NCBI GenBank assembly: GCA_964187785.1
Contig: OZ076409.1
Span: 13,022,001 to 13,086,000 of the forward strand
Origin: Amphiscolops sp. MND2022
Lineage: Eukaryota
DNA: 64,000 nucleotides
Direction of reading: 5' to 3'
Part shown: positions 31,498-60,190 of the stretch, in pieces
Position numbering within the stretch: the first letter of the stretch is position 1
How the letters are laid out: the number at the start of each line of letters is the position of its first letter
Notes under the pieces: model-generated
Told to the model about the DNA's origin: nothing
Database searches by the model: none
The model's input: the letters and a program-made list of their open reading frames with translations, nothing else
Program-made: the position numbers and the translations under genes

Positions 31498-31801
31498 ATG
31501 ATAATGGCCATGAAGTCAATTTCCAAATTGTCCAGAGTTTGTCACTTGTGTTCTATTAGAACGCTCTCTAAACTTACAGCCAGTGAACAGGCGATGAGCA
31601 GTTCTCAGCCTACATCAGTGAAGAATAACATTGCTCACTATGATCATGTGTCCAAATTTCCTATGCCTTTGCCTGATTTTGAGAAAATGGACTACGACGT
31701 TAGCCAAGAAGATTTCACATTCGTACTAGATTATCTACCGAAGGCTCTCAAACCTATTTCTCCCAGTACTGTTACCGAACATCCTAGTGGTTGGGTTCCA
31801 G
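31498..31801 (+). CDS. MRPL49: Mitochondrial ribosomal protein L49 (mL49), first coding exon, copy A
   Basis: Presequence-like N-terminus, then SQEDFTFVLDYLP...HPSGWVP resembling the mL49 S.DEY.FVERLLP...TPSGW.PP segment. Canonical G|GTAAGT donor, phase 1, in frame with the exon at 59850. Confidence 0.85.
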
Positions 31802-32569
31802 GTAAGTTGTTTTTATTCCCAAAAGGTTAACTTTTTATCCATTTTGGAAAATGTCTGGTGTCTTTTCCACTATCAAGCTGGTAACACCGAGTTAGCAAAC
31901 TGCAAGACAGCTGGCAACTGAATTTTATCACGTGTTTCATGTGTACAATTTATTGTTGTTTACATCCAGAACATGTTTCTGACATGCGTACGCCTACAAT
32001 TTGTGGGCGTTGCATTGTACAGTCGAACTCGGATCAAAGAAGGCAAAAGAAACATTTGAATGTAAGAAACGTTTTCACCCCTTCGCTTTTATGCAAGACA
32101 AACTTTCTACGCTTTCCTATGCTAGATAGGACAACTGATAAAAGAAACTCTTCTTGCCACCATCCGAGTTCGATTGTAATTGATTGTTCGGCTTTTTTGA
32201 AAGAATTTAAATACTGTAATCATGAGATTTTCATTAGAAAACACTTTCGAAAAGAGGCCCAGCTATAAGTTTTGATAATCCTGAAAAAGTAATACTTTGT
32301 CTACAACAAATTTTGATTGGAATAATGCATTTCTCAAGAAAATATTTCTACAGCCTCGTTTCAATTATTCTATAGCCTCGTGAAAAATTTGCAAAAAAAT
32401 TGAAATCAGACAGAGGATCTTTTTATTGAAACTAGTTGCATTATGAAATGGTATTTTCCAATTGAAAATTCACGTTGTTAACGTTTAAATGAGTTATTTC
32501 AACTCATAAAAGTTAGGTAAATCAACATTGTACAAATACACGAACTTCATATTGGATTCAAATTCACTT

Positions 32570-32991
32570 TTTGGCCAGAAGGGTACCGTGAAGGTAAAGA
32601 CTGTCGATTTACCTAACGACCATTTTCCAGTAGTTTTTTTTAAACTTGATTCGAACACAAATTTTTATCAAACTCTCAACAGATTTCCAAGAGCTCATTT
32701 TTCTTAATGTGCCTCCGAGCCACTAAAGCCTCTAAGGAGTCACCCTATAGAGTAGATTCTTTCTGCGCTCTTTGTCTTTAGAACTTGGATAACATGTCCG
32801 CCATGTTTGACCAATACATTCGTACCATCCACTGTCCCGGGACCTTTCCATTCGTCAATACCTTGTTGCTTGTTAAACACGTTATTCCCAGTCTATAAAC
32901 TGTTCGTTACACCTTCATTCGATCGCAAAGCTTGTCTGATTCTATCTGAATTTTCAACCTGACTGTAGGCTTCTCGCGTTTTATACAAGGC
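32570..32991 (-). mobile_element. Old GalEa-like Copia remnant, 3' part (integrase tail), left of the Polinton
   Basis: Reverse complement reads EWKGPGTVDGTNVLVKHGGHV, matching KWFGPARVLGQDGKIIIVRHGGQV in the intact element at 53732-58138. Confidence 0.65.
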
Positions 32992-33340
32992 AGTAGTATG
33001 CGAATTCCCGATTCGGACCAGCCAAATCATCAAATTTAGCCATTTTTTCAAAAAAAAATCGATAAAATTGGTGTTTTTTCACTACTAAAAAATAAAAAAA
33101 ATTAAGCTCGTAAAATCATTAAAATTTAGCATTTTTTCAAGGCAAATCATCAAAAACTAGCCTTTTTTCACAACTAAAAAATTAACAAAATAAAAATTAA
33201 TGAACAAGTTTTTCCAATGGAAAATTCATTGACCAAGATATAATCATGGAAAAATAACTATTAAATAAATTATTTATCATTCAAAGAATTTGTTGATAAA
33301 TATAGATTAAAAAATGAAGCAACTTCCAATATAAAATAAA
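32992..33340. repeat. Polinton left TIR
   Basis: Reverse complement of ~45920-46351 and ~48447-48878, lacking one ~84-bp subrepeat. Confidence 0.93.
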
Positions 33341-33415
33341 AGAATTTTTCACTAATTTTGAAAAATTATAATTGAAAAATTTTTAATTAAACTATTTTTT
33401 CTTTAATAAATAGTA

Positions 33416-33692
33416 ATGGAGAATTGTAGTATTTGTAATTTAAATTATAAAAAAGTTTTCAAGTCTGATCATTTAAAATCAGTAAAACATCTTGAAAAAT
33501 TAAATCAATATTATTGTAAAAAATGTAATTTATATATGCCTATCTCATAAAATTTCTCATTTAAGTTCAAATGAACATAAAAATAAAACCGAACAACGAC
33601 GTGTTTGGTGTGAAGATTGTAGTAAATATATATCTGATACAACAAGACATTTCCAAAGTGAAATTCATTTACAAAACCGTCAACGGGAAAAC
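33416..33692 (+). pseudogene. Frameshifted N-terminal triple C2H2 zinc-finger extension of pPolB
   Basis: MENCSIC...HLKSVKH...YCKKC then TAA at 33548. The shifted frame continues ISHLSSNEH...WCEDC...HFQSEIH directly into the 33693 ORF. Confidence 0.75.
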
Positions 33693-36600
33693 ATGCAAAA
33701 TTTCGGTAATGGAGTAGAAATAATTATGAATGAAAATACATACATTAAACTTAAAATAAATCCAACTAGTAATTTCGAAGATCATATAAATGAATTACTT
33801 AGTAAAAATTATTTTCCCCGATATAAATATCAATTGAGTTATCTAGCTAAATTTTCAAAAATAGTCAATGGAGAAGAAGTATTTAAAAGATGGATAAAAT
33901 CAGATCTAACGTATAACAACACACAACAAGATACTCATAACACATTAATGCAGAAATTAGATGATGAACAATTAGAAGGATCAGGTTTTGTGTTTCAAGA
34001 AATAGAAGAAGTTATATTAGAAATATATAAAGTTAATGATATTCAAGCATCTTCATATATTGAGTTACCAGGAAAATATAAGGATAGTAAATCGAATATA
34101 AATATAAAGAATAATGATCAATATTGTTTTTTATGGTGTATCCTAGCATATTTATATCCTGTCGAGGATCATAAAGATAGAATATCAAAATATGATATGT
34201 ATAAGCATACTTTGAATATCAAAGGTTTAGAATTCCCAATGAAAGTAAAAGATATGCCCAAATTTGAAAGACTTAATACGCAAAACCCCTTCGGTAAATC
34301 GAATATCAGAGGTCATGGTATAAATGTGTTTGAACTCACTGGAAATGTTTTAACACCAATTTATATTAACGAAAATTACAAACAACCACAAATAGATTTG
34401 TTATTGTATGAAAATCACTATTGTCTAATAACAAAGTTGCATTGTTTAATAAATAAAGATTCACACATGAAACACATCTGCAGGAGATGTTTTACTGCAT
34501 TTCATTCAACCGATGTTCTAAACAACCACATAGAAAGATGTATAAATCAACAACCAACCAATATCACATTAAGTTGGAAGGATCAGTTAAAGTTCGAAGA
34601 TTATTATATGAAAATTCCTGTACCAATAAGAGTATATGCAGATTTTGAATGTATTAATCAACCTCAAAAAGACCCCAAAGTATTATTTAAACAAATTCCA
34701 ATTGCAGTAGGATTTTATGTAATTTCACCATTTGAAAGCAAGTATTATTCATATTTTGGAACAGATTGTACCAAGTGGTTTGTAAAGGAAATGTTAAAAT
34801 TAGAACAAGAAGCAAATAAATATTTTAAAACAAACTTAGAATTACAAATAACTCCTGAAGAAGAAGAATCATTCAAACTTGCAGAAGAGTGTTGGCTTTG
34901 TGAAAATCCACTCGATATGCAAAGCACCTCCGGTGATACTAAGGTTAGAGATCATGATCATCTTACAGGAAAATACAGAGGAGCAGCTCATAAAATATGT
35001 AACATAAATTGTAAACAAAGGTCATCAAGTTTTGTTCCTATATTTTTCCATAACTTTTCTGGGTATGATTGTCATCTTATATTTCAAGAACTCTTAATAC
35101 AAGCTTTCGAAAAGGGGTATGAACCAAAAATAATCCCAAAGTCAATGGAAAATTATGTATCAATTCAAGTAGGTTGCTTAAGATTCTTAGATTCATATCG
35201 TTTTCTAAGTAGTAGTTTAGATAAATTAGTTAAGAGTTTAGACAGTTTCCCAATAATGGATGAAAATGGATTAAAAGACAAATTATTTAAAAAGAAATTA
35301 GCTTATCCATATGAATACTTAAATCTTGATAACTTTCAGGAACCATTAAATTTAACCAAAGAAGATTATTGGTCAACATTAACACAATCTTATCCATCAG
35401 ATGATGATATAAAAAGAACCCAAGAATTAATTTATAAAATTAAAATTAAAAATGGAAGAGAATTAACAATGTTATACTTAAAAATGGATGTTCTTCAATT
35501 AGCTGATGTATTTGAAAACTTTGTGGAAAGTTCTACACGAGAATATAAAATTAATCCTTTGTACTCTTATAGTCTACCTGGTTATACATGGAAAGCAGGA
35601 TTGAAGTTGACTAATATAAAGTTAGACTTTATAAAAGATACAGCGAAGCTGCCCTCCGGTAAAGAATTATTACTACTACTTGAAAATAATATCCATGGAG
35701 GAATTTCAAGTGTAATGGGAGATCGTCACGTGCAATCTAATGAAAATAAAAAAATCTTATATATCGATGGAAATAATCTATATGGATGGGCAATGAGTCA
35801 ATATCTTCCTACTGGCGAATTCGAAATATTACCTCTTAATCGGTGTAATTACACAGATAATTACAATCTAAAACAATTAGTAGAAGATTTATTACAAATA
35901 CCTGATGATAATGAATATGGATTCTTTATAGAATGTGATTTAGAATATCCTGTTGAAATTAAAGAAAAAACAAAAAACTTTCCTTTTTGTCCGTATCAAA
36001 CAAAAGCAGATCCAAACTTATTCTCAGGTTATATGAATAATGTGAATCAACCTAATTACAAACCAACATCAAAACTTATGTGTGATGTAACCAATAAATC
36101 GAAATATATGATACATTATAGGATGTTTAAGTTTTATCTTAACCAAGGGATGAAAGTAACGAAGATACATACTATCTATAAGTTTAAACAAAGTCCATGG
36201 TTAGGTAAATATATCGATCATAATACTCAGAAACGCACAGTAGCGAAAACAAACTTTGAAAAGGATCTTTTTAAATTAATGAATAATGCTTTCTTTGGGA
36301 AGACTATGGAAAATGTAAGAGATAGAACCAATCTAGAATTCATTGATCATTCTCAAATAGATCAAATAATAAAAAGACAATCCAAGTTAAGTTTCAAAGG
36401 AATCGTGGATCATTATTCTAAGTTTAGTGTGTACAAGTTTGATAAAGAAAAAACAGTCTTTGATAAACCAATTTATTTAGGTTTTACAGTTTTAGAACTA
36501 TCAAAACTATTAATGTATGAATTTTATTATAACAAATTACAACCATATTGGAAACAATCCTTACAACTACACTACATGGACACTGATTCTTTCATACTTA

Positions 36601-37232
36601 GTTTTGATAGAAACCACCAAGAACTAATAAACTTTTTACAACAAAATAAAGATGAATTTGATTTCAGTGAATTGGATAAATCGCATGAATTATATAATCC
36701 TATTAACAAGAAAGTTATAGGAAAAATGAAAATTGAAACAAGTCCAGTTTTGGTGTTAGATACCTTCACAGCATTGCGATCAAAGTCATATTCTTTTAGT
36801 TATAATAATCCGAATGGTATCATTCAAAAAGCGAAACAAAAAGGAATACAAAAAGCTCCCAAATGTGAAGAATATCAAAATTCATTGTTTAATTCAGAAA
36901 CATCAAGTTCTACAAATATATCAATTAGATCTAATTTACACAACCTCACAGTTGAACAACAACCTAAGTTGTGTTTGAATCCTTTTGACGATAAACGTTT
37001 GTATATAAATCCAATACAAAGTTTACCATGGGATAAACACACACAAAAAGGTGATTGCCCTTGTATCTATTGTTTGAAATTAATTGGTTTGTATTATAAA
37101 GATTTAACTATAAATGATGACAGTAGCAAGAAAACAGATGAAGAAATATATTGGAGTGTTTGGTATTGGAAACAAGCACTCACCCATCAACAACTTGTGA
37201 AGTTGATAAGTGATCGAGCACATGTTTTATAA
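33693..37232 (+). CDS. Protein-primed family B DNA polymerase with terminal-protein/OTU-like N-terminus and inserted HNH/EndoVII-like domain
   Basis: Exo I YADFE, Exo II HNFSGYD, Exo III YLKMD; polymerase motifs DGNNLYG, KLMNNAFFGK, YMDTDS; CWLC...DHDHLTGKYRGAAH..CN; NNDQYCFLW...ENHY. Confidence 0.95.
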   Translation: MQNFGNGVEIIMNENTYIKLKINPTSNFEDHINELLSKNYFPRYKYQLSYLAKFSKIVNGEEVFKRWIKSDLTYNNTQQDTHNTLMQKLDDEQLEGSGFVFQEIEEVILEIYKVNDIQASSYIELPGKYKDSKSNINIKNNDQYCFLWCILAYLYPVEDHKDRISKYDMYKHTLNIKGLEFPMKVKDMPKFERLNTQNPFGKSNIRGHGINVFELTGNVLTPIYINENYKQPQIDLLLYENHYCLITKLHCLINKDSHMKHICRRCFTAFHSTDVLNNHIERCINQQPTNITLSWKDQLKFEDYYMKIPVPIRVYADFECINQPQKDPKVLFKQIPIAVGFYVISPFESKYYSYFGTDCTKWFVKEMLKLEQEANKYFKTNLELQITPEEEESFKLAEECWLCENPLDMQSTSGDTKVRDHDHLTGKYRGAAHKICNINCKQRSSSFVPIFFHNFSGYDCHLIFQELLIQAFEKGYEPKIIPKSMENYVSIQVGCLRFLDSYRFLSSSLDKLVKSLDSFPIMDENGLKDKLFKKKLAYPYEYLNLDNFQEPLNLTKEDYWSTLTQSYPSDDDIKRTQELIYKIKIKNGRELTMLYLKMDVLQLADVFENFVESSTREYKINPLYSYSLPGYTWKAGLKLTNIKLDFIKDTAKLPSGKELLLLLENNIHGGISSVMGDRHVQSNENKKILYIDGNNLYGWAMSQYLPTGEFEILPLNRCNYTDNYNLKQLVEDLLQIPDDNEYGFFIECDLEYPVEIKEKTKNFPFCPYQTKADPNLFSGYMNNVNQPNYKPTSKLMCDVTNKSKYMIHYRMFKFYLNQGMKVTKIHTIYKFKQSPWLGKYIDHNTQKRTVAKTNFEKDLFKLMNNAFFGKTMENVRDRTNLEFIDHSQIDQIIKRQSKLSFKGIVDHYSKFSVYKFDKEKTVFDKPIYLGFTVLELSKLLMYEFYYNKLQPYWKQSLQLHYMDTDSFILSFDRNHQELINFLQQNKDEFDFSELDKSHELYNPINKKVIGKMKIETSPVLVLDTFTALRSKSYSFSYNNPNGIIQKAKQKGIQKAPKCEEYQNSLFNSETSSSTNISIRSNLHNLTVEQQPKLCLNPFDDKRLYINPIQSLPWDKHTQKGDCPCIYCLKLIGLYYKDLTINDDSSKKTDEEIYWSVWYWKQALTHQQLVKLISDRAHVL

Positions 37233-37330
37233 AAATAAATATATTGTTTTATAATTATTATTATTTATAAAAATAAATTTATTTATCATATCAGCAAAGC
37301 TGTATTAATATATATTTAAATTATATTTAT

Positions 37331-38557
37331 TCATAATAAATCAAAATGCCTTTGTCCATCACTACTGATACTTATCAGTTTAGGTGTTAGGACTTGGGCA
37401 TAAGCTATATAATCTGCTACATCAATGGCAGCATTAAATTTAATTTCTAACCTAATAGGTTGACTCGCAATATTATCTTTTTGTTTGGATAAATCAAATA
37501 CATAGAAATTATAATTTGTCCTGAATGTATGCAAATCAATAAACGGATTGAGTAGATTAGTTTCACTTTTTAACAAATAGAAGTTTTCAATTTCACTGTA
37601 TGCTTGATCATATTTGTCTCTATCATAATCACATTCTATTCCATCATCGGGATATTTCTCTGATCCTATTTTACAAACAGCATTTGAAACAGGTAAACGA
37701 TCAAATATTGCATTATCATGTGTTTGTGAATCAATTTTATTTCTAGCTTGAAATCCAACAATTACAAAAATTGGTGTTGATTCTCCACTATTACCTAATT
37801 CAAATGTCCAATTGTTATTCGTGTTAACATCTTTTCTAAAAACAACTCGTTCAATATAATACAGTTCAGTTGGATCTTTGTCTAATATTTGATCCATCAC
37901 AAGTTGTTGGTTTTCCATTGATGGTGTGTAGTGTGGAATATACCAGATGTCTTTTATATTTATTTTTGCAGCATCTACACCGTTGTCCCTTATAATGGGG
38001 TCGTTATTATTATTTCGTTTTAAAGTAAGAGTATAACCCAATTCATAAGTTATTTTTTCTTGATCAGCAAATCCAAATATATCACTCAACCTAATTCTAA
38101 CAAAAAAGGTTCCTTTTTCTGTTTTGTTTGTTGTTAGTTCTTGTCTTCTAGTTGCTTGTGATTCTTCAAACCCATACATCAATTGACTTGTTTGTTGATT
38201 AGATGTTAAAAGTTTATACATCAATGAAATTGGGTGTAGATTATCAACTTTTTCTAAATGTTTACCTGAACTAGTAGTTAACTTAGCTTCACTAAATAAA
38301 GCAACGGGTCCAAAATTAACTAAACTTATTTGATCACCATCTGCATATCTTGTATCATCATTTTTAAGAACTTCAAATTCTAATGATACGTATGAGTTTT
38401 GTAAACAAATATATGCATCTTCTCTTGGGAAGATGATGGAAATATTTGAATTATTATTGTTGATTGTAGCTAAACTACTAGGTGAGTATTTAATAAAATC
38501 AATTTTATGAATAGGTTTATCCATAGCATATTTATTTTTCAATGAAAATATTTCCAT
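37331..38557 (-). CDS. Major capsid protein (double jelly-roll type)
   Basis: 408 aa, beta-rich; NSYVSLEFEV...LVNFGPVALFSEAKL and FYVFDLSKQ...IRLEIKF patterns typical of Polinton MCPs; ORF open. Confidence 0.85.
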   Translation of the reverse strand: MEIFSLKNKYAMDKPIHKIDFIKYSPSSLATINNNNSNISIIFPREDAYICLQNSYVSLEFEVLKNDDTRYADGDQISLVNFGPVALFSEAKLTTSSGKHLEKVDNLHPISLMYKLLTSNQQTSQLMYGFEESQATRRQELTTNKTEKGTFFVRIRLSDIFGFADQEKITYELGYTLTLKRNNNNDPIIRDNGVDAAKINIKDIWYIPHYTPSMENQQLVMDQILDKDPTELYYIERVVFRKDVNTNNNWTFELGNSGESTPIFVIVGFQARNKIDSQTHDNAIFDRLPVSNAVCKIGSEKYPDDGIECDYDRDKYDQAYSEIENFYLLKSETNLLNPFIDLHTFRTNYNFYVFDLSKQKDNIASQPIRLEIKFNAAIDVADYIAYAQVLTPKLISISSDGQRHFDLL

Positions 38558-38618
38558 TTAAATAGGAATAAAAATTAGGATTAAAATTTTATACTGATTT
38601 TATTTTTACTTAAAATAT

Positions 38619-39140
38619 TTATCCTAAAAAAGTAAACTCAGAATTTAGTTTAGTTTTATTGTTTTTATACACATCGTATGTTTGTTTTAATTTGTTGTAT
38701 TCATTCAGATCTATTTTATTGTCTTCTAAACATTTCGAATGTAGTTTTTGGTAGTCGTGTAGTGTTCTACCAGCAAGAGTATATTTTTTAATTTTGTGTT
38801 GTTCTTTTCTTTTCAGGTACTCACCAAGAAGTTTACTGATTATACATAAACCTGCACCTATACCACTTGCTATAGGTACAACAAAAAATCCAACTCCTGT
38901 GACACTTAACGTGACACATGTTGATGATACACCCAACACCGACACTCCATCAATAGATTGAATTAAACAATTTATAAGCTTGTATTGTTTACTTTTCTTT
39001 TTATATTTTTTAGCTTCATGATTATAAAAATTTTGAATATCTTTTATATTTTGAATTGAATTATTGAAACTATTTATTTCTTTCAATCGCATATCAAGAT
39101 TATCTGATTCACGTGAACAAGGATACAATTTTTCACTCAT
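38619..39140 (-). CDS. Putative membrane-active protein (adintovirus 'GasderminX'-type)
   Basis: LYP N-terminus, KKY helix, Gly-rich hydrophobic hairpin (TLSVTGVGFFVVPIASGIGAG) and SKCLEDNKI..EY tail. Confidence 0.65.
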   Translation of the reverse strand: MSEKLYPCSRESDNLDMRLKEINSFNNSIQNIKDIQNFYNHEAKKYKKKSKQYKLINCLIQSIDGVSVLGVSSTCVTLSVTGVGFFVVPIASGIGAGLCIISKLLGEYLKRKEQHKIKKYTLAGRTLHDYQKLHSKCLEDNKIDLNEYNKLKQTYDVYKNNKTKLNSEFTFLG

Positions 39141-39164
39141 TTAATTTTAAATAAAAACCTAATT

Positions 39165-39883
39165 TTAGTTTTCAAAAAGTATGAAATTTATCTCGGTATC
39201 GGTTAGTTTCATTCTATATTTAAGGTCAACAATATCTTTGTATTCATCTTTCTTTAAGCACTTCACGATATCTTCTCGCGTTGAATAGTCTAAATCAGAT
39301 AAATAATACTCACCATCTGATGTCTTTATTTCTGTTCCGCATTTTTCCAACAAGTATTCATCACTAAAATATAAGTACTCATTAAAGATTTGGTCTTTAT
39401 TTTCAAATGAGTCAAACAATCCTTTGTTGTATAGCAATTGAATAGTATCTTTGACTGCTTGATTTTTACATTTTTCCAATTCCAAAATAAGGTTTCTCTC
39501 AAAATGATTACGTAAAATGGTTTGTTGTTCTTCCACTAACTTGGCAGCATCCAAAATTATTTTTTTCTTTTCTAAAAATTTATTTTTAACATCTTGTTCT
39601 AAGTATTTCAGGTTGATTTTCAAGTCTTCTATTTGCGTAGCCAGCTTTGCTGTATCTTTATTTATGTCTAAGAATAACTTGCATTGACTACTACCTTGGT
39701 TTCACCATCATCAAAATTAATTTCTTGTACACTTTGTAGGTTTTCAAAGTTTTCTAATTTGTCAGAAATATTAATAAGTTTTATATTAAATAATTTGGTT
39801 TGTGATTCGAATTCTTTTTCTAATTTCTCAATCTTATCTTTTTGTAAGCTTTCGGCACTATAACCAAATTTATGAATTGACAT
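39165..39883 (-). pseudogene. Hypothetical coiled-coil Polinton protein, probably one gene split by a frameshift near 39680
   Basis: 71-aa ORF (MSIHKFG) and 152-aa ORF that lacks an ATG. The downstream frame is open upstream (LFLDINKDTAKLATQIEDLKINL) and overlaps the first ORF's end. Confidence 0.45.
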
Positions 39884-39900
39884 TATTTATTTAAATATAA

Positions 39901-40753
39901 TTACTCATATTGGTGGAAAATATTCATACTTTCTAACGTTTTGTTGTTAGATTTAAAATTGAATACACTTCTTAAAAGTTCTTGTTCATAATAATTTCCT
40001 TCTATTTGTTCGTTATTTTCATCTAAACCATACGTAACTGGGTTAGTATTGTTATTTTTATGTATTTTAAAAAGTTCTCTGTTCCAATTTGTTGTATGAC
40101 CTTTTGAATAAATGTTCCTTTTGTCAGGAACTCTTACATAGTCTCCCACTTGAAATTTGGGTATTTTTCATTTTTATTAATTTTAATATTGATAATTTTA
40201 TTAGTATTGGTAACCATTTCAAATGGTGTCATTTTTGTTGTACCATGAACACGATTATTATATTTTTCCATAGCAGCATCAAGGTGATTCAACCAACAAG
40301 CTTTACCTTCAATGTACATGGGTTCTTTAATTAAGTCTAAAAGTGTTCTATTGAATCGTTCAACAAAAACGGCTTTTAAATCTGAATTAGTTGAATAAAT
40401 ATGAATGTTTTGTTCCTTCAGGAAATCCAAAAATGTTTTATTATAAAACTCTTTACCTCTATCTGACCAAATTTTATGAGGTTTCTATTACTAGTTTCTA
40501 TTAGTTTTTTGAATGCAGTTGTTGTACTTTTTCCTGATTTATCTTTGAGAGGAATTGCCCATGCATACTTAGTATGATTGTCAATTATTGTGAAAATGAA
40601 TTTGTAGTTTTTATTATATTTTGATAAGCTAGACCTGTCTATCAGATCAATACTCCAACACTCATCTTTATAGTGAGTTTGTATTTGAATTCTTTGAAAC
40701 TTCTTGATTACAGGAGAGAATATTTCTTTAACAATTTCTTTCTTTTCATTCAT
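39901..40753 (-). pseudogene. Retroviral-like (rve) DDE integrase, two frameshifts
   Basis: WSIDLID, IDNHTKYAWAIPLK, SDRGKEF (shifted frame), VERFNRTL, YNNRVH, VGDYVRV and YYEQEL spread over three ORF pieces. Confidence 0.92.
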
Positions 40754-40767
40754 TTATTTCCTAATAA

Positions 40768-41802: not shown

Positions 41803-41806
41803 TAAA

Positions 41807-41904
41807 AAATCACTAAGCAAATTCACTAAGAGCATATATTTTTCACTAAGCAAATAAGGTTACACTTAAAACATCATGCTCTTAGTGAATTTGCTTAGTG
41901 ATTT
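41807..41904. repeat. 29-bp perfect inverted repeat built of CACTAAG units
   Basis: AAATCACTAAGCAAATTCACTAAGAGCAT (41807-41835) and its reverse complement (41876-41904). Confidence 0.85.
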
Positions 41905-41925
41905 AGTGATTTTTTTACTAAATAA

Positions 41926-43837: not shown

Positions 43838-43886
43838 AATTTATTATTCATAAAAAATAATATTTAATTTACAGCTCGGCTGTAAA

Positions 43887-44288: not shown

Positions 44289-44297
44289 TTAATAGAA

Positions 44298-45393: not shown

Positions 45394-45396
45394 TTA

Positions 45397-49870: not shown

Positions 49871-51236
49871 TTTTTCCTACATGTTTTTCCACATCAATTG
49901 ATCCATTGCGGTCACCAACAGCCACTGCGACCCAGTACCGCACAGCGTGAGGTCTTGTTTTCGTAGAAACCGGTACCACCTTGAGTACGAAAACCTCCAA
50001 ATTTTCTTGATTTGAATCGTTGATCGTGTAACCCTGCGACCCATTCTCAAACCTATGACCTCGAGATTTATCATTTGGGGTTATGATGTAGGCGACAACC
50101 AAGATGAATCACTTGAAGATGATTTGGAAAAACTCGAAGAGAAGCTAGAGCTACTACTTGGAAATGAGAAAGTTACCGTCGAGATGACTGATATGGCTAT
50201 TAGAACAAAAAATCTGCAAGACAAATCGATCCTAATCTGTTTCGAAAAATGAAAATCATTTCAGCCGTTGGCTCTTCCCGTCTCGAAAAATTTGAATGAA
50301 TAAAACATGGAAGAAAAGTTATTTTAATTTTCAATGCAGTTGAATGCAAAACACGTCAACGAGGCAATTCTTAAGGAAAGGAAACTTGCTATTCATCTGA
50401 GGTAATACAGCAAGGTCTGATGACAGTACAGGGAAAGATGTCTTTGGTTGACTTGATAGGACTTGATAAGGACAGCTAATGTATTGAAGAAGTTGAAGTT
50501 TTCATTTATTGAGAAAATATTTAGAAACTTGAAGAGAATAAAGCAAACTAATGAAGGTTAATTTATTCTGATGAAATACATTGATTCATAATATGAACGT
50601 ACTAGAGGAAGCTCAAATATACATACCAGAGGCAAGATTGAAAGATGGGCAGATGGATAATTTTCGGAGACAAAACTGAAATAGAGTTGAATCCTATCCA
50701 CTAAAATAATATTACTTCACAAGTAAGAAAACGCACCTGTGCTTACACACGCCTTTAAGGTGAAGAGGTTGGTGCTATTGACTGCAGAGAACAATGATCT
50801 CGTTCCAATTGCTTAATCGGCGTCCACCCGGCGGAATTAGGAAATAATTTTTCGTCATCTAACTAGCGTTGATCTTTCTAACTTGATCTTTGCTGAAATG
50901 AATTTTTGGTTATGACGTTTTTAGGTTATAACTTTTGATCTTTGGTGATATAGTAGTAGTAGTAGATTCAAGTCATATTGGGTTATTTTTCATCTGTTTC
51001 CAAGTCAAATGCAGTTCCTGCCTTGCATGTTTTTAAAACTTTCAGTTTTTGAGCCTTAAGTATAGCGCCGACTTTGAACGTGCTCTTCTTGAAATTTTAG
51101 ATGTTATTTCCCGGTGGACCTTAAGACCTTGATCCCTAGACGTTTTGCCGCATCTATTTCTAATTGATTCTGGTAACTTTCATGGCAACTTATCAATGAC
51201 GAATGTCACCTTGTGCCTAACAAAAACGTGTTCGAG

Positions 51237-51540
51237 ATGATAATGGCCATGAAGTCAATTTCCAAATTGTCCAGAGTTTGTCACTTGTGTTCTATTAGAA
51301 CGCTCTCTAAACTTACAGCCAGTGAACAGGCGATGAGCAGTTCTCAGCCTACATCAGTGAAGAATAACATTGCTCACTATGATCATGTGTCCAAACTTCC
51401 TATGCCTTTGCCTGATTTTGAGAAAATGGACTACGACGTTAGCCAAGAAGATTTCACATTCGTACTAGATTATCTACCGAAGGCTCTCAAACCTATTTCT
51501 CCCAGTACTGTTACCGAACATCCTAGTTGTTGGGGTCCAG
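51237..51540 (+). pseudogene. MRPL49: Duplicate MRPL49 exon 1 (copy B), open but with SGWVP changed to SCWGP and donor GTAAGC
   Basis: Near-identical to 31498-31801. Whether it is functional cannot be decided from sequence. Confidence 0.6.
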
Positions 51541-53362
51541 GTAAGCTGTTTTTATTCCCAAAAGGTTAACTTTTTATCCATTTTGGAAAATGTCTGGTGT
51601 CTTTTCCACTATCAAGCTGGTAACACCGAGTTAGCAAACTGCAAGACAGCTGGCAACTGAATTTTATCACGTGTTTCATGTGTATAATTTTTTATTGTTT
51701 ACATCCAGGACATGTTTCTGACATGCGTACGCCTACAATTTGTTGGCGTTGCATTGTACAGTCGAACTCGGATCAAAGAAGGCAAAAGAAACATTTGAAT
51801 ATAAGAAACGTTTTCACCCCTTCGCTTTTATGCAAGACAAACTTTCTATGCTTTCCTATGCTAGATAGGACAACTGATAAAAGAAACTCTTCTTACCACC
51901 CTCTGAGTTTCTTTTATCCGAGTTCGATTGTAATTGATTGTGCGTCTTTAAGTAAAGAGGCCCAGCTATAAGTTTTGATAATCCTGAAAAAGTAATACTT
52001 TGTCTACAACAAATTTTGATTAAAATAATGCATTATTCAAAAAATTATCTCTACAGCTTTGTTTCAATTATGTGTGAAAAATTTGAAAAAAAAATGAAAT
52101 CAGACAGAGGATCTTTTTATTGAAACTAGTTGCATTATATGCATTATAAAATGGTCTTTTCCAATTGAAAATTCACGTTGTTAACGTTTAAATGAGTTAT
52201 TTCAACTCATAAAAGTTAGGTAAATCAACATTATACAAATACACGAACTTCATATTGGATTCAAATTCATTTTTTGGCCAGAAGCATCAGAAGGGTACCG
52301 TGAAGGTAAAGACTCGATTTGCCTAACGACCATTTTCCAGTAGTTTTTTAAAATTTGATTCGAACTTTTGATTTTTATCAAACTCTCAACAGATTTCCAA
52401 GAGCTCATTTTTCTCACTAAAGCCTCTAAGGAGTCACCCTATAGAGTAGATTCTCATTTTTCTCACTAAAGCCTCTAAGGAGTCACCCTATAGAGTAGAT
52501 TCTTTCTGCGCTCTTTGTCCTTAGAACTTGGATAACATGTCCGCCTTGTTTGACCAATACATTTGTACCATCCACTGTCCCGGGACCTTTCCATTCATCA
52601 ATACCTTGTTGCTTGTTAAACACGTTATTCCCAGTCTATAAACTGTCTGATTCTATCTGAATTTTCAACCTGGCTGTAGGCGTCTCGCATTTTATGCAAG
52701 GCTATCAAATTTCCAGGTCTTTTTCCAGATCGTGATGTTGCATTCAGGTAATTTAGGGTTTATGCCTCTCACAATCTGTGAAAACCCGCCCTTATTCGAA
52801 AGACAATTTCTCACATATAACCGATATTTCATTAGCGTTGTATCGAGCAGGTCCCATGAACGATCGGATTTCAGCTTCAGAAATATCTCGGTCAGTACTG
52901 CGTTGTGTCGCAGATTCAGTTTCACCACGGGCTTTCAGCAGTGTTTTTTATTCCAATTCCGTAATTTTCTGCCATGGATTGAAATGTTCATAGTCAAACT
53001 CGCCCCTATTATCCGTTAGTGTGTTCAAGGGCACTCCAGAATCACAAATCCATTGTGATATAAAAGTTGATAATAGTGTTTGGCGTTTTATCATTGATAA
53101 TAACCGCACGGTCATATTTTGAAAATAGATCAGTGAAATGTATGTAGTATACGTATACATTTGGATCTAGTTGACGAATGTCCATATCTACAACTTCATT
53201 GAAGTCATTTTTCTGCTACCATGAAAACAATAGGTAACAATTTGTTCGAAAAAAAAACGAAATTTGACGTGAAAACTAAAGTAAATGACCATTTTTTCAG
53301 CATTGAGATAAACTCAGGTCTGGTATCAAAATCCAAAAAAGCTTTTCTTGACATTAACTCGA

Positions 53363-53449
53363 TGAAAAACTGTAATACTTCAACAGACTATATTAAAAAC
53401 CCCACCGGACATTACATCTAGAAACACATAAACATTATATATTGTCACA
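53363..53449 (-). repeat. Copia 3' LTR (87 bp)
   Basis: Identical to 58150-58236. Confidence 0.95.
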
Positions 53450-53731
53450 ATCACACTCTAATTCATTTGTTTAGCTATAGATGAATCTATGGCGTCAGAC
53501 AGCACATGTATAATGAACAAACAAATTGGCAGTAGATAGTTCACCTATATTGGCGCGAGTTGCAGAGGTAGTGATTGAGAGCAATTGAATTGCAGGCGTA
53601 CATGTAAGGACATGTAGTACCTGTCACGTGATACGCCAATCATCTACGTGGTCGTAGGTGTGAAATATGAATGAATTACGTCATCCCACAATAATTCAAG
53701 CAAATGATAGACACTTCTAATTGTTGAAATA

Positions 53732-56700
53732 CTATACAGAGGCACCAAATACATCTCGCAGAATACCAGGAAAATGACTATTGAATGCGCAGGTCTGCAG
53801 GACGACTTCTAGGTAATTTGACACTTTTGTGGCCCGTTTTGTCAAACAATCCGCCAACTGGTAATCAGTTGGAACCCACCTCAGCGATAAAATACCAGAC
53901 GTAATCAAGGACTTCAAATAACTTATTTCCACCCGCAGCGTTTTTTCACTGATTTTGCTGTTAGAGACAGCAGCGGCCACTAATGATTTCGAGTCAGATA
54001 AACAAATAATGGATAATTTCCTCTGTAAAATAGATTCAGTCGTCTTCTGAATAGAAAGTGCGGCATCAATTGCTTCAGTTGCCGCAAGGGTTTCGGCACA
54101 TAGAGTGCTTCTTGCGACACGCTTTAATTTGTGGGATCGCCAAGATATTAGTGTTGCCGGAAAAGAGTCTCTCGATGAAAAATCCACAAGAAACACTAAA
54201 TATCCAGCCTGCGTTGTTCCATCCGCATTATTGCCCAGTGACGCATCCGCAAAGCATACAAGCTTCCAATTTGCAAAATCGCCAGTCAAATTCCCAGATC
54301 GTAGCCTACATCCTGACTGACTTCTGAGCTGTCGTACCACTTTGTTCAGAATCAGAATCTCAGATACCGTAAGGGAGGATAGTTTTGACGATACTTCTGC
54401 CACACTGTAAGCAATGAGCGGACTTGTTTGAACAGCTACCCACAGTAGCTGTCCTATGAGAGCCCTAGCATAACCAATGTACTCAAACGGCACCAGTTCG
54501 TCTTTGGGGCGCGATAATAGGTCAGCGACGGGTATTTCTGATAAGCAGTCCAAGTAATCCGTCAATTCGAATCCCGCCCAGTTTTCCTTGAGGGTTCCCA
54601 TCGTTACTCCAAGGTATTTGCAAGGAAGATTAGCGGTTTCCTTGACCAAAAACACATTATGTATGTGCTTTATAACAGATTCCTTGAATTTCTGACTACC
54701 AGCCCACCAAATATCGTCAACGTGAATAGTCAAAAAACCGCTTACAACTTGATCTTCATGATGTACAAAAACACATTCGTCGCCATCGGTTTGAGTACAT
54801 CCTGACTTGATCAGTTCGGATTTGATTCTCTCAAACCATTTCCGTGGAGCATCTGATAGACCATATACGGCCTTCTTCAATTTCCATATACAGTCGGTTC
54901 CGGATTCTTTTGGAGGCTTCAGAAAGACATCGCGGTTGAGAAAATCTCCTTGTAAAAATGCAGTTTTGATATCCAAAACTCCAGTGAACCAGGTCTTGTT
55001 GGCATTGAGAATTGGCATCAGCGCTCGTACTGAGTCTCTAGAACATGTTGGTGAATCCTTTACCAGTGTTTCGATATCAGCATCCTGGTATCCTTTAGCC
55101 ACCAGTCTGGCCTTTTTCAAGCCATCTTTTGATGTACATACCCAGCGCGTCGTTATAACCTTCTGGCCGGTATTTTCGACAACTTCATACACATCAAAAC
55201 GCAGCCAATTCTGCAACTCACTCAGCTTCTCAGCAATAAATTCATCCGATTCATTTGTGACAAAGGTGTTATCCGTGATCAACGCAATCTCTGATTCACT
55301 CACAATTTCAACGCCTTTCGATACATCAATCGATCCCCTCGTGCCCAATAAATCCCCCGGTTTCAAGTACTCAATATTGAACCAATGACAGTGTTTTCCA
55401 TTTGCTTTTCCAGCACGACTCAAGACCCGAGCTTCAGCTGTCTCTTCAGCATCTTCGTGATAAAAACGAATCACCTTACCAGGTTTGATATCACTTGCAT
55501 TTGGCGTACTCACTGTAGTCACAACTTCTTCTAGTACAGTCTGTGTCGCAGATTTGTCTCGGGAATCAGACTCGGCGCCATCCTCAAGACACGCTTGATT
55601 GTTTTGGCAGACCAACGAATCCACGTTCGTACTCCCATTGGTAATCTCGCTAGAACTCTCATCTGGATTAGAGGTTTCGGGTGCATCAAGGAAATTTTCA
55701 CCCGAATCAATTGGCACTCCGGGACGGTCTCTGGAAGGTTTTTCACTGCGATCGTCATGCTCCAATCGTAAGAAAGGATCTTCTGCTGGTGATCGGCGAA
55801 CATGAATAGAATGTGCTCTGTAAACTTGCCCTCCATGTCTGACAATGATTATTTTCCCATCTTGACCAAGTACACGAGCTGGACCAAACCACTTGTCTTT
55901 ATTTTGTCGCTTGTAATAAACTGTCTGCCCTGGATGAAAAGGACCCTCATCCGAGATAACCCGGGTTGACAACGCCTTTTTGATCCTTGTGGAAAATTCC
56001 AATTCGGCATATCTCGATCTAGCCTTTGACAACATTGTCAAATGGTTTGCCACGTATTTCGAAACAGTGACATTCTCCAGGGCTGCCGGTGATGCATTCA
56101 TGACTGACGGCAAAGATGGACTTTTACCATACACGAGTTGGTAAGGCGAGAACCCTTCGTTATTGTGTAACACGTTCTTCGCGAATACTGCCTGTTGGAG
56201 GAGAATCTGGGAATCGATGTCAGAACTATCTTCTGACAACTTTTTGAACATTTCCGTTATAATGCCGTTATGTCTCTCGCAAATTCCATTGGAGAACGGT
56301 GACTCGGCGGCGGTTGTAATATGCAAAATCCCGAAAATATCACAACAAGATTGCATAGAGTTATTGACGAATTCACCTCCGTTGTCCGTCAGAAGCTGTT
56401 CGGGCACCCCAAAAACGAAGATCCAATACTCTAACAGAAATCTAATGATGGTTTCGGGTTTCTTGTCATATATTATACGACAGACACTAAAACGCGTGAA
56501 TGAGTCAATAATGTGGATATACCACGATGGTGCAGTCGCTTTGGACAATTGGTGTAAATCGATACATACTGTTTGATTGAAGTCACTGCTCATTGGGGCC
56601 GACACCTTGGGTTTACACTTCACACGCCCGTAACGAATACATACTTCACACGAATCTGTAACTTTCTCTACGCATTTTCGCAGACTTCTCTCATCATGAC

Positions 56701-58138
56701 CTGCAGTTTTAAGAAGACCAATCATTTTTTCAGTCTTGCAATGCCCAAACTGCTTGTGTAACTTGGCTATATTTTCAGTAGTCAGACTGGACATTGCGTA
56801 CTGGATTTGATTGTTTGGAACGGCATCAGGAATAATTTGACATGCCAGGTGACCAGTACTCAAAACAGTCAGTTCATGCCAATTTTCTCGTGTTCCCAAA
56901 ACAAATGATTTCTGGTCAAAATCCACACACATTTTTGCTCTTGCCATGCTTTTAACGCTCAATAAAAGAGGGAGACATCCGTCCACAATTTCGCACTCCA
57001 AATAGCAATCTAGATCTCCTAATTGCACAGGCAGTGACACTGTAAACAGGCACTTGGTCACCTTTCCATCGCCAAAGATGATAGTTGCGCTACTAACTCT
57101 CTTCTGCACGTTTTTCCGTCTCGCAACGGGCATCATTTTTAGATATTCATAAAACCACTGACTTCCAGCGACTGTACGTGTGCATGCGCAGTCGAATATG
57201 CACATTCCTCTGGATTCAGCAGACAATCCAGCACATGTACTTGCAAACGTCAGATAGATGCTGTCTGTTGCAGGTCCTGATGGATCTGTACATGAATACT
57301 CACAGAACTCCGCAGTCTCGCTAGGTGCGCTTTTTTTTTGATATTTTCTTCCAGGTTCAGAATTCCCATCGGGGCAATCTCGAGCATAATGGAACCTGGA
57401 ACCGCAATTCCGACACGTTGACACTCTGCCATGTCTATCGGTTGGATTCGTTCCTCTAACATCACTTCCTCGTCGATTTCCGCGACCACTTCGAGGTACC
57501 CATGTTCCTCGATACCTGGATGCCAAAAAAGCAGCATCTGCACCTTCATGGTTCTGATCAAGAGCTGTGAATGCTGGCTCGCATTTCACTTCGCTTGTCC
57601 CAGCTTGCTCTGTGCGATCCTCTCCTTTTGCAGAATAGATTCGTCGTAGCGCTGTTTTCATTTCGGAATATGCCATCTTGGTTGACGTTGCAAGCACCAG
57701 CTGCTGTTCCTTTGTTTCCAAATCTGCACAGTAAAGAAGTTTGCAGGCCAAGATATTATCTGGCATTTTCAATCCACATTTCTCCAGGTTTGCTGCCCGT
57801 GTCTCGAATTCGATTGTGTAATCGACCATACTTAAGGTTCCTCTTCGTATTTTCTCGAACCTCTCATATGCTTCGTACATCTGGTCACTTTTATCTCGGC
57901 CAAACACCGACTCGAGCTTCTGTAAAACTTTTGTAAAGCCGTCTGCACCTTTGACTTCAGCTTGGTCCAACTTCATAACAACAGAACGTCTATATCCAGA
58001 TAAGGACAATGCAACCGCAGGTCCAATCTGCTCAGGTTTCAAATCCGTCAAACTCGTCCACAGTTCCATTTCAGCCTTCCAGGACTCGAAACTTTGATCA
58101 TCCTCCCATCGCGGTGGGGCTTTATACGATGCTGTCAT
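53732..58138 (-). CDS. Copia gag-pol polyprotein (1468 aa)
   Basis: CRNCGSRFHYARDC, protease FDCACT, LHKQFGH...CEVC, integrase D/TDNGGEF/ERHN, RT KARLVAKG, DIKTAFLQG, HVDD, RNase H FADAS...AETLA...QLADCLTK. Order PR-INT-RT-RH. Confidence 0.97.
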   Translation of the reverse strand: MTASYKAPPRWEDDQSFESWKAEMELWTSLTDLKPEQIGPAVALSLSGYRRSVVMKLDQAEVKGADGFTKVLQKLESVFGRDKSDQMYEAYERFEKIRRGTLSMVDYTIEFETRAANLEKCGLKMPDNILACKLLYCADLETKEQQLVLATSTKMAYSEMKTALRRIYSAKGEDRTEQAGTSEVKCEPAFTALDQNHEGADAAFLASRYRGTWVPRSGRGNRRGSDVRGTNPTDRHGRVSTCRNCGSRFHYARDCPDGNSEPGRKYQKKSAPSETAEFCEYSCTDPSGPATDSIYLTFASTCAGLSAESRGMCIFDCACTRTVAGSQWFYEYLKMMPVARRKNVQKRVSSATIIFGDGKVTKCLFTVSLPVQLGDLDCYLECEIVDGCLPLLLSVKSMARAKMCVDFDQKSFVLGTRENWHELTVLSTGHLACQIIPDAVPNNQIQYAMSSLTTENIAKLHKQFGHCKTEKMIGLLKTAGHDERSLRKCVEKVTDSCEVCIRYGRVKCKPKVSAPMSSDFNQTVCIDLHQLSKATAPSWYIHIIDSFTRFSVCRIIYDKKPETIIRFLLEYWIFVFGVPEQLLTDNGGEFVNNSMQSCCDIFGILHITTAAESPFSNGICERHNGIITEMFKKLSEDSSDIDSQILLQQAVFAKNVLHNNEGFSPYQLVYGKSPSLPSVMNASPAALENVTVSKYVANHLTMLSKARSRYAELEFSTRIKKALSTRVISDEGPFHPGQTVYYKRQNKDKWFGPARVLGQDGKIIIVRHGGQVYRAHSIHVRRSPAEDPFLRLEHDDRSEKPSRDRPGVPIDSGENFLDAPETSNPDESSSEITNGSTNVDSLVCQNNQACLEDGAESDSRDKSATQTVLEEVVTTVSTPNASDIKPGKVIRFYHEDAEETAEARVLSRAGKANGKHCHWFNIEYLKPGDLLGTRGSIDVSKGVEIVSESEIALITDNTFVTNESDEFIAEKLSELQNWLRFDVYEVVENTGQKVITTRWVCTSKDGLKKARLVAKGYQDADIETLVKDSPTCSRDSVRALMPILNANKTWFTGVLDIKTAFLQGDFLNRDVFLKPPKESGTDCIWKLKKAVYGLSDAPRKWFERIKSELIKSGCTQTDGDECVFVHHEDQVVSGFLTIHVDDIWWAGSQKFKESVIKHIHNVFLVKETANLPCKYLGVTMGTLKENWAGFELTDYLDCLSEIPVADLLSRPKDELVPFEYIGYARALIGQLLWVAVQTSPLIAYSVAEVSSKLSSLTVSEILILNKVVRQLRSQSGCRLRSGNLTGDFANWKLVCFADASLGNNADGTTQAGYLVFLVDFSSRDSFPATLISWRSHKLKRVARSTLCAETLAATEAIDAALSIQKTTESILQRKLSIICLSDSKSLVAAAVSNSKISEKTLRVEISYLKSLITSGILSLRWVPTDYQLADCLTKRATKVSNYLEVVLQTCAFNSHFPGILRDVFGASV

Positions 58139-58148
58139 CCTGCTACCA
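58136..58148 (-). promoter_or_regulatory. PBS complementary to initiator tRNA-Met, overlapping the gag ATG
   Basis: TGGTAGCAGGATG, compared with the tRNA-iMet 3' complement TGGTAGCAGAGGATG. Confidence 0.8.
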
Positions 58149-58149
58149 A

Positions 58150-58236
58150 TGAAAAACTGTAATACTTCAACAGACTATATTAAAAACCCCACCGGACATT
58201 ACATCTAGAAACACATAAACATTATATATTGTCACA
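58150..58236 (-). repeat. Copia 5' LTR (87 bp)
   Basis: Identical to 53363-53449; adjacent to the PBS. Confidence 0.95.
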
Positions 58237-59849
58237 CTCGAAACCTTCGAAATTTTAAGTTGGATACAATAAAGGTCAAAAGAACGGTTAGCTCTGTCCA
58301 ATTTCGGGAAGTATTTACAAACAGCTTACAGTTGTTAACTTGTCACACGAGCTCGCAATAAAACAGCCTTAGGTTCTGGCAAGATCCCACAGCTTCCGGG
58401 TCATCCCCGACGAGAATGCGACAATGCCTATTCCCTACGTGCAGTTGGACGCGAAAAACAATCGTCGCCCGAAAACCCAGTTACGCGCACATGAACGGTG
58501 CGGTGATCCATCAGCCGGATCCCCATAATGTCTTTTAAATTTTTTTCTCGGCTTTCTTCGTCGCAAGTTTGTTCTTCCTACATGTTTTTCCACACCAATT
58601 GATCCATTGTGGTCACCAACAGCCACTGCGACCCAGTACCGCACAGCGTGAGGTCTTGTTTTCGTAGAAACCGGTACCACCTTAAGTGCGAAAACCTCCA
58701 AATTTTCTTGATTTGAATCGTTGATCGTGTCACCCTGCGACCCATTCTCAAACCTATGACCTCGAGATTTATCATTTGGGGTTATGATGTAGGCGACAAC
58801 CAAGATGAATCACTTGAAGATGATTTGGAAAAACTCGAAGAGAAGCTAGAGCTACTACTTGGAAATGAGAAAGTTACCGTCGAGATGACTGATATGGCTA
58901 TTAGAACAAAAAATCTGCAAGACAAATCGATCCTAATCTGTTTCGAAAAATGAAAATCATTTCAGCCGTTGGCTCTTCCCGTCTCGAAAAATTTGTATGA
59001 ATAAAACATGGAAGAAAAGTTATTTTAATTTTCAATGCAGTTGAATGCAAAACACGTCAACGAGGCAATTCGTAAGGAAAGGAAACTTGCTATTCATCTG
59101 AGGTAATACAGCAAGGTCTGATGACAGTACAGGGAAAGATGTCTTTGGTTGACTTGATAGGACTTGATAAGGACAGCTAATGTATTGAAGAAGTTGAAGT
59201 TTTCATTTATTGAGAAAATATTTAGAAACTTGAAGAGAATAAAGCAAACTGATGAATGTTAATTTATTCCGATGAAATACATTGATTCATAATATGAACG
59301 TACTAGAGGAAACTCAAATATACCAGAGGCAAGATTGAAAGATGGTCAGATTCATAATTTTCGGAGACAAAACTGAAATCGAGTTGGATCCTATCCACTA
59401 GAATAATATTACTTCACAAGTAAGAAAACGCACCTGTGATTTACACGCGCCTTTAAGGTGAAGAGTTGCTGCTAACGACTGCAGAGAACAATGATCTCGT
59501 TCCAATTGCTTATTCGGCGTCCACCCCGCGGAATTGGGGAAATGATTTTTCGTCATCTAAATAGCTTGGATCTTTCTAACTTGATCTTTGCTGAAAGGCA
59601 TTTTTGGTTATGACGTTTTTAGGTTATAACTTTTGATTTTTGGTGACATAGAAGGGTTACGGAGTACATCGTTTCACGTCAAGACGATGTCCTAAACGTT
59701 TCAGACACAGCAAAATTTCCAAAAACGTTGCACTAAACAATCCTGTTGGATTTTTGCTCCTGCCGAATTTTCTGGAAAACCCAATTATCACATTTGAAAG
59801 AATTTTAATTGCATTTTTGTTCACCTTAATATGCGATTAATCTTTTCAG

Positions 59850-60190
59850 TTTCCCCCGACGCCTTTAAAGAAAACTCAAACGCTGAGCACATCGCCAAGC
59901 CTTACAACGTCAGACGGAACACCAATCAAAATGTTCCCGTGTATGAAAGTCAGCGGAGCTACTGGCTGGATAGACGCACGCCCGATATATACAACTTGTA
60001 CAACATCACCTGTGTCGACAACATCTCTGGAGACATATGGACACTGCGGGAAGAACTGATTCAAGTTATCCAAGAACATCATAGCCTAGAAACTGTCGAA
60101 TCGCAAGTCTTGGAACTTTGTGGAAAAATCAACTTCTTGGGACATTTCAGATATTGTATCCGTGATTATTTAGTAGGAAATGGTTTCTGA
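59850..60190 (+). CDS. MRPL49: Mitochondrial ribosomal protein L49, last coding exon
   Basis: TCTTTTCAG| acceptor, phase 1. PYNVRRNTNQNVPVY...ISGDIWTL...GKINFLGHF...YLVGNGF* follows the mL49/Img2 pattern PY.VRR....N.PVY...GDIW.L...G...GF. Confidence 0.9.

What the first reader, a model, noticed from the sequence alone, without database searches (positions are those of the whole stretch)
31498..60190. Essential gene MRPL49 likely splices across a 28-kb intron holding a whole endogenous virus, a Copia and a decoy exon 1
Seen: two exon-1 copies but one exon 2, both phase-compatible. Copy A keeps SGWVP, a GTAAGT donor and CAG before the ATG. Copy B has SCWGP, GTAAGC and GAG. Inference: copy A is functional, giving intron 31802-59849 (28,048 bp); otherwise copy B with an 8,309-bp intron yields an altered protein.
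Basis: partly seen in the sequence, partly recalled or inferred. Interest (0 to 1): 0.7.

Follow-up and report, generated by a model that had tools for sequence, protein, structure and literature searches.

The report
Virus-stuffed intron in mitoribosome gene
In what is likely an acoel worm, the front half of the only mitoribosomal mL49 gene is duplicated in tandem, one copy followed by a decayed Maverick virus-like element and the other by a young retrotransposon, and the working message likely comes from the first copy across 28 kb, although no RNA data were available to show it.

Summary
The genome holds one mL49 exon 2 (Img2, 52 bits) and two exon-1 copies; both splice in frame to 214 aa. 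A distant relative has the same phase-1 intron, 69 nt long.

The layout is a tandem duplication of about 3.8 kb (5' flank, exon 1, most of the intron). Copy A carries a Maverick/Polinton, copy B a recent Copia, and each site is empty in the other copy.

Copy A keeps the ancestral residues. All five differences around exon 1 weaken B, including the Gly of PSGW. This favours A-to-exon-2 splicing (about 0.55), but it is inferred.

Corrections:
- The 'virus' is end-to-end but decayed, and one of at least 102 capsid-gene matches in the genome.
- GTAAGC is still a usable donor.
- A second public contig appears to carry one A-type exon 1, so the layout may be a single allele.

The host has spliced-leader genes, so CAG|ATG may be a trans-splice acceptor whose loss silences B. 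Polinton-filled introns are known (C. elegans eri-6/7).

The parts
31268..31497 (+). 5' flank of copy A inside the duplicated unit: a very common repeat motif near 31309, acceptor-like TTTTAG at 31361, CTAAC about 20 nt before CAG|ATG
   Evidence: a role as trans-splice acceptor is inferred
31498..31801 (+). mL49 exon 1, copy A (F54, G98, V100; donor GTAAGT)
   Evidence: BLASTP 37% to two homologues
31802..59849 (+). predicted 28,048-nt intron if copy A splices to exon 2
   Evidence: phase and position conserved in L045; splicing not observed
32992..46351 (.). Maverick/Polinton element, 13.4 kb, 27% GC, AGTAGT...ACTACT ends, TIR about 350 bp, TSD CAAGGC; decayed
33693..37232 (+). family-B polymerase-like ORF, 1179 aa (recalled motifs present; no polB Pfam hit); sense to mL49
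37331..38557 (-). double-jelly-roll major capsid-like ORF, 408 aa
   Evidence: PF21738 65 bits; 102 scored matches in G000
39904..40753 (-). rve integrase, in three pieces in different frames
40768..42888 (+). two P-loop ATPase-like genes, both interrupted by stops
44242..49296 (.). 2.5-kb tandem duplication of the Maverick's right end plus about 420 bp of host flank; 7 differences; outer element end at 48878
50951..50966 (.). junction between duplicated units A and B, with a short TAG repeat and no gap
50967..59654 (+). duplicated unit B (5' flank, exon 1B, intron copy, Copia)
   Evidence: 163 mismatches in 3,643 aligned bases against unit A
51237..51540 (+). mL49 exon 1, copy B (L54, C98, G100; GAG before ATG; donor GTAAGC)
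53363..58236 (-). Copia LTR retrotransposon: identical 87-bp LTRs, TSD CTCGA, tRNA-Met-type primer site, one 1468-aa ORF
59850..60190 (+). mL49 exon 2 (Img2 domain), single copy in G000

Best explanation
The 5' half of the single mL49 gene is tandemly duplicated, with a decayed Maverick in the first copy and a young Copia in the second, and the working mRNA from this chromosome likely joins exon 1A to exon 2 across 28 kb while skipping a decaying exon 1B. Shown: the layout, the reading frames, the conserved junction, and the ancestral state of A. Inferred: transcription from the native upstream region, read-through of the AT-rich element, and skipping of B. Skipping is needed because including B between A and exon 2 gives a stop at codon 122. 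It is likely helped by loss of the YAG in front of B's ATG, which in this trans-splicing host would be the spliced-leader acceptor. The locus is likely one allele of a polymorphic site, and output may be reduced.
For: One exon 2 in G000. Same phase-1 intron after PSGW in relative L045, 69 nt. A shares F54, G98 and V100 with a third version on another contig, P0022. G98 is Gly in 5 of 5 library homologues that cover it, in L045 and in 3 of 3 solved chains shown, where it is human G71 next to core residue W72. No amino-acid change is assignable to A or exon 2 since the duplication, against 3 on B (p 0.033). All 5 differences in the 450-nt tract 31459-31908 weaken B (about 0.05 by a post-hoc count). 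A+B+exon 2 stops at codon 122. G000 has 1,948 leader cores, 1,217 followed by GTAA and 28 joined directly to ATG. Precedent for cis-splicing over Polinton remnants: PMC11414722.
Against: No RNA evidence for any junction. GTAAGC is a usable donor and lies 8.3 kb from exon 2. Other acceptor-like sites remain before B (TTTTAG at 51100, shared with A; TTTCAG at 51045, only in B), so the GAG change may not silence it. The Maverick adds 48 sense AATAAA and a sense polymerase gene. 0 of 41 exon gaps in 16 housekeeping genes reached 11 kb (median 575, largest 10,545), so 28 kb is unusual here while 8.3 kb is within range. The statistics rest on 3 to 5 changes. If the other homologue is simple, this allele need not work.
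Confidence: 0.55

Rival explanations
1. This is a weak or dead allele. Transcripts from A end or mis-splice inside the Maverick, B is defective, and the animal relies on a simpler second allele with one exon 1.
For: A 343,556-bp contig holds an A-type exon 1 (P0022) and a 126/127 version of the downstream flank ORF, and no B-like member. 48 sense AATAAA in the element. About 5 kb of Polinton remnant lowers downstream exon expression in C. elegans (PMC11414722).
Against: Exon 1A and exon 2 show no decay while B shows 3 changes. The Maverick has sat there long enough to gather several breaks and 4 TIR differences in 353 bp.
Confidence: 0.2
2. Copy B supplies most of the mRNA, from a promoter inside its roughly 270-nt duplicated flank or by leader trans-splicing at a remaining acceptor, giving an mL49 with L54, C98 and G100 over an 8.3-kb intron.
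For: B is open, in phase and has a GT donor with +1 to +5 intact. 8.3 kb is within the observed range (2 of 41 gaps were 8 kb or more). Acceptor-like sites remain upstream.
Against: B breaks the Gly kept in every homologue examined, and every derived change falls on B, none on A.
Confidence: 0.17
3. A and B are two alleles placed in tandem by the assembly; each real chromosome has one exon 1 and one insertion.
For: Reciprocal empty insertion sites and patchy divergence (dispersion 2.8; 0 of 5,000 shuffles reached it) look like allelic mosaics. The 449,390-bp public contig with the same content may derive from the same data.
Against: No N gap. No shared repeat seen at the junction, which has its own TAG filler. 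A third exon-1 version lies on a separate contig. B looks released from selection, which is unlikely for a free-standing allele.
Confidence: 0.08

Closest known systems
Polinton insertions in C. elegans eri-6/7 (PMC11414722; passages read)
   Same: Polinton DNA between exons of a host gene in a trans-splicing worm; polymorphic; accompanied by local duplications; single-gene strains splice exon to exon at over 90%, with lower downstream expression in the remnant-bearing ones.
   Different: There no strain keeps a full element (about 5 kb in CB4856) and the gene is an RNAi helicase, with RNA proof. Here the element is end to end, the gene is a single-copy mitoribosomal protein, a second exon 1 intervenes, and there is no RNA proof.
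Maverick/Polinton elements of animals (PMC8097293, PMC6431247; passages read)
   Same: (AGT)2...(ACT)2 ends, TIRs, 6-bp TSD, size, capsid, integrase, ATPase, polymerase-like genes; most copies are degraded fossils.
   Different: This copy fails the paper's 'intact' test, has two ATPase-like genes and a duplicated right end.
GalEa-like Copia elements (PMC3587641, PMC11889832; passages read)
   Same: TG...CA ends, primer site starting TGGTAGCAG, CCHC knuckle, Copia domain order, about 4.9 kb, marine host.
   Different: LTRs of 87 bp (133 and 217 bp in the elements described); one ORF whose ATG follows the primer site directly; clade not tested by a tree.
mL49/Img2 (MRPL49; PMC12081275, passages read)
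   Same: Img2 domain, Arg matching human R88, PSGW matching G71-W72.
   Different: 214 aa against 166; an insert of about 11 residues in the domain; Gln in place of human His92.

Membership tests
mL49/Img2 | PF05046 above the curated cut-off | tested here: met
   exon 2 alone 52.3 bits against 34.4
mL49/Img2 | Similarity to solved mL49 chains | tested here: met
   top 5 of 29 matches are mL49, E 3e-4 to 1e-3. Exon 1A alone gave 0 matches but matches full-length homologue P0006 at E 3e-19, which matches mL49 at 1e-9
mL49/Img2 | PSGW segment before the domain, copy A | tested here: met
mL49/Img2 | PSGW segment before the domain, copy B | tested here: not met
   PSCW
mL49/Img2 | Mitochondrial import, ribosome incorporation, essentiality in this animal | not testable with these tools
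   lethality is only predicted for mouse in PMC12081275
Maverick/Polinton | TIRs with (AGT)2/(ACT)2 ends and a 6-bp TSD | tested here: met
   definition
Maverick/Polinton | Double-jelly-roll major capsid protein | tested here: met
   PF21738 65.1 bits against 27
Maverick/Polinton | Retroviral-like integrase | tested here: inconclusive
   rve 22.5 bits, below the cut-off of 32.6, on one fragment; three pieces
Maverick/Polinton | Protein-primed polymerase B | tested here: inconclusive
   recalled polB motifs found in order; no polB Pfam hit, no PDB hit, no viral-contig relative
Maverick/Polinton | A32-type packaging ATPase | tested here: inconclusive
   window piece 20.6 bits, below 22.8; longer cluster member P0059 26.7 bits, above
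Maverick/Polinton | Adenain-like protease and minor capsid protein | tested here: inconclusive
   labels rest on recalled motifs and position; no family hit
Intact Maverick (PMC8097293 sense) | All core ORFs uninterrupted | tested here: not met
Ty1/Copia | gag knuckle, integrase, then RVT_2; LTRs TG...CA; 5-bp TSD | tested here: met
GalEa clade | Placement in an RT/RNaseH tree | not tested
   only the primer site was compared: first 9 letters equal the one in PMC3587641
SL trans-spliced gene | Leader joined to this gene's 5' end in RNA | not testable with these tools
   the host has leader genes; no run was listed

The most novel reading that the evidence does not exclude
In a trans-splicing animal, duplicating a first exon copies its leader acceptor and creates a poison exon. 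This allele was rescued by selected point changes that weakened the copy's acceptor (CAG to GAG) and donor, so a mitoribosomal gene is now spliced over a full-length Maverick, a decoy exon and a Copia in one 28-kb intron, about 400 times the size of the same intron in a relative.
Probability: 0.2. Interest if true: 0.6.

Novelty: new member of a known kind. Interest (0 to 1): 0.35.

Why it matters
If A-to-exon-2 splicing is shown, the locus is a natural test of how a trans-splicing animal chooses between two nearly identical first exons, and of how a housekeeping gene tolerates 16 kb of AT-rich virus-like DNA. Three exon SNPs make the test simple, and a simpler allele seems to exist for comparison. 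Otherwise it is an ordinary structural variant in a repeat-rich genome with many Mavericks.

Tried and rejected
- Sequencing runs: none was listed for 59700-60400. This is no evidence either way; no reads were laid.
- Search for longer homologues of exon 2: 0 of 21 candidates.
- Exon 1A against solved structures: 0. Polymerase-like ORF against PDB and viral contigs: 0. Protease-like ORF: one chance match.
- Rfam: 0 matches in the window.
- The bacterial promoter scan is not suited to this host and found nothing.
- The 29-nt motif about 190 nt before the ATG was dropped as a gene-specific promoter: 20,167 copies.
- An upstream operon partner was not seen; ORFs in 1-31400 look like decayed transposons (judged by eye).
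- The idea that the second contig lacks the Maverick was dropped: exact look-ups found 8 of 9 listed Maverick ORFs on one contig only (2 more were not in the collection), but allelic changes would give the same result.
- None of 4 sense Maverick ATGs has an AG directly before it.
- Literature: no report of this locus or of this rescue mechanism in 8 searches. Supplements were not read.

Full report
Observation. The coordinates hold. Exon 1A is 31498-31801, exon 1B 51237-51540 and exon 2 59850-60190. Either exon 1 joined to exon 2 gives 645 nt and 214 aa; the introns would be 28,048 and 8,309 nt. Exon 2 alone passes the Img2 cut-off (52.3 bits against 34.4), and its five best matches among solved chains are mL49. 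G000 (1.07 Gb) has one exon-2 match by DNA and by protein and two exon-1 matches. I did not run the HMM on the joined product; the exons were tested separately.

The junction is the conserved one. A 230-aa homologue, P0006, carries both parts. Contig L045 from a distant relative (50% identity) has the same two exons with a 69-nt phase-1 intron right after PSGW-x-x. A closer relative's exon 2, P0003 (77%), loses similarity at the same point.

Anatomy. The layout is a tandem duplication of about 3.8 kb of host DNA: about 230 nt of 5' flank, exon 1, and all but the last 195 nt of the intron. Unit A spans about 31268-50956 and unit B 50967-59654. The junction has a short TAG repeat and no gap. The units differ at 163 of 3,643 aligned bases (4.5%), but unevenly: two tracts of about 1% (31459-31908 and 50003-50602) lie among 3-9% segments, and 0 of 5,000 shuffles reached this dispersion. 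The second tract lies partly in a dispersed repeat, so gene conversion or an allelic mosaic is likely (inference), and the duplication cannot be dated simply.

The Maverick. It sits only in A, with AGTAGT...ACTACT ends, TIRs differing at 4 of 353 aligned bases and a CAAGGC duplication; B has the empty site. These are the features given in PMC8097293 (passages). The capsid gene passes PF21738; integrase and ATPase hits are below cut-off. The polymerase and protease labels rest on recalled motifs and the minor-capsid label on position alone. Against one other G000 copy (about 8% different) and six cluster members, the integrase lies in three pieces, both ATPase-like genes have stops, the putative minor capsid gene is split and the polymerase's front part is detached. 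The genome gave 3,016 capsid candidates, of which 102 were scored and all matched at 92% or more. So the element is end to end but a fossil of an abundant family. Its right 2.5 kb, with host flank, is duplicated (7 differences).

The Copia. It sits only in B, antisense, with identical 87-bp LTRs, a CTCGA duplication, one 1468-aa ORF in Copia order and a 100% identical sibling 2 Mb away. It is very recent. Its primer site begins like that of GalEa elements (PMC3587641, passages); the clade was not tested.

Which exon 1 works. A and B differ at 3 of 304 bases, all non-synonymous: F54L, G98C, V100G. A third version, P0022, on a separate contig shares F, G and V with A, so the changes arose on B. 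G98 is Gly in 5 of 5 library homologues covering it, in L045 and in 3 of 3 solved chains shown; it matches human G71 beside W72, a core residue in PMC12081275 (passages). With B holding 32% of the non-synonymous sites of A, B and exon 2, three of three changes on B has p 0.033. The only other differences in the 450-nt tract are CAG to GAG at -3 and GTAAGT to GTAAGC at +6; their direction is inferred from consensus only. This favours A, on small numbers.

Trans-splicing. The leader core reported for the acoel Symsagittifera roscoffensis (PMC9911081, passages; 30.2% of genes trans-spliced there) occurs 1,948 times in G000, 1,217 times followed by GTAA and 28 times directly by ATG. Of 20 leader-ATG loci viewed, 14 belong to one family. 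The host is therefore likely an acoel that trans-splices. CTAAC...CAG|ATG in A reads as a candidate leader acceptor. A duplicated acceptor would make B an internal exon, and A+B+exon 2 stops at codon 122. Loss of the YAG in B would remove that trap; that GAG acceptors are rare is established knowledge, recalled. Against this, TTTTAG at 31361/51100 is kept in both copies and B has an extra TTTCAG at 51045.

Is the layout real, and is it fixed? In the protein collection, exon 1A, exon 1B, the Maverick ORFs and both protease-like copies each lie on a contig of 449,390 bp, the longest also for exon 2. This may be the same data as G000. A contig of 343,556 bp holds P0022 and a 126/127 version of the flank ORF at 61574, and the exon-1 cluster has only these 3 members. 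Exon 2 and a 65-aa intron ORF are each on 2 contigs. I read this as a second haplotype with one A-type exon 1 (inference from contig lengths; its DNA was not seen). It argues against A and B being the two alleles of one animal, and it means the 28-kb allele may be covered by a simpler one.

How unusual is 28 kb? From 57 of 65 exon hits of PF00118 and PF00227 (8 single hits left out), 41 gaps in 16 genes had a median of 575 nt, a maximum of 10,545, and 2 at 8 kb or more. Missed small exons inflate some gaps. PMC9911081 gives a mean intron of 2.5 kb. The Maverick makes up 57% of the long intron and holds 48 sense AATAAA (54 antisense), a risk of early cleavage.

Comparison. In C. elegans eri-6/7, wild strains with Polinton remnants between exons show lower downstream expression, and single-gene strains splice exon to exon at over 90% (PMC11414722, passages). 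Splicing over Polinton DNA is thus known. What is particular here is a full-length element, a single-copy housekeeping gene and a second exon 1. 'Essential' is a prediction for mammals. Also seen as passages: PMC6431247 and PMC11889832; other papers were seen as search listings only, and no supplements were read. The scan had no note near this place and no match to the combined words.

Verdict. Real feature. A-to-exon-2 splicing 0.55; weak or dead allele 0.20; B dominant 0.17; assembly artefact 0.08. New member of a known kind; interest 0.35.

Noticed in passing
window 44242-46769 and 46770-49296: Tandem duplication of the Maverick's right end plus about 420 bp of host flank, 7 differences; the element has two right ends, each followed by the TSD.
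   Followed up: partly
window 50951-50966: The junction of units A and B is a run of five TAG, which resembles Maverick (AGT)n ends and is also a (CTA)n repeat on the other strand; origin unexplained.
   Followed up: no
window 50003-50602 and 58704-59300: Second low-divergence tract between A and B, partly inside a dispersed repeat; its 65-aa ORF is identical in both units and found on 2 contigs; no Pfam or Rfam hit.
   Followed up: partly
window 31309-31337, 51048-51076, near 16880 and 61180: A 29-nt motif with 20,167 matches in G000, likely part of a very abundant small repeat, lies about 190 nt before the mL49 ATG.
   Followed up: partly
L013-L023, L052-L071: Many leader copies are fused to non-leader sequence (11 of 12 loci viewed); 14 of 20 leader-ATG loci are one family whose ORF starts at the leader junction, probably retroposed trans-spliced RNAs.
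   Followed up: partly
G000:C1 about 16.23-16.42 Mb: Large tandem array of leader-RNA-type genes with a spacing of about 904 bp.
   Followed up: no
window 58128-58150 (- strand): The Copia's ATG follows its tRNA-Met-type primer site directly, about 11 nt after an LTR of only 87 bp.
   Followed up: partly
window 33265-33336: The left TIR reaches into the first 24 codons of the protease-like gene found at the right end.
   Followed up: no
window 61574-61957: 127-aa ORF, 126/127 identical to a version on another contig, no Pfam hit; possibly an exon of a neighbouring gene.
   Followed up: partly
window 59852-60187: mL49 here and in P0003, P0005 and P0006 has an insert of about 11 residues (PDIYN motif) in the Img2 domain, absent from the mammalian chains.
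   Followed up: no
window 1-31000: Decayed retroelement-like ORFs (4690-6921, 11616-15784, 23364-28265; labels judged by eye) and inverted repeats at 28916-30622.
   Followed up: no
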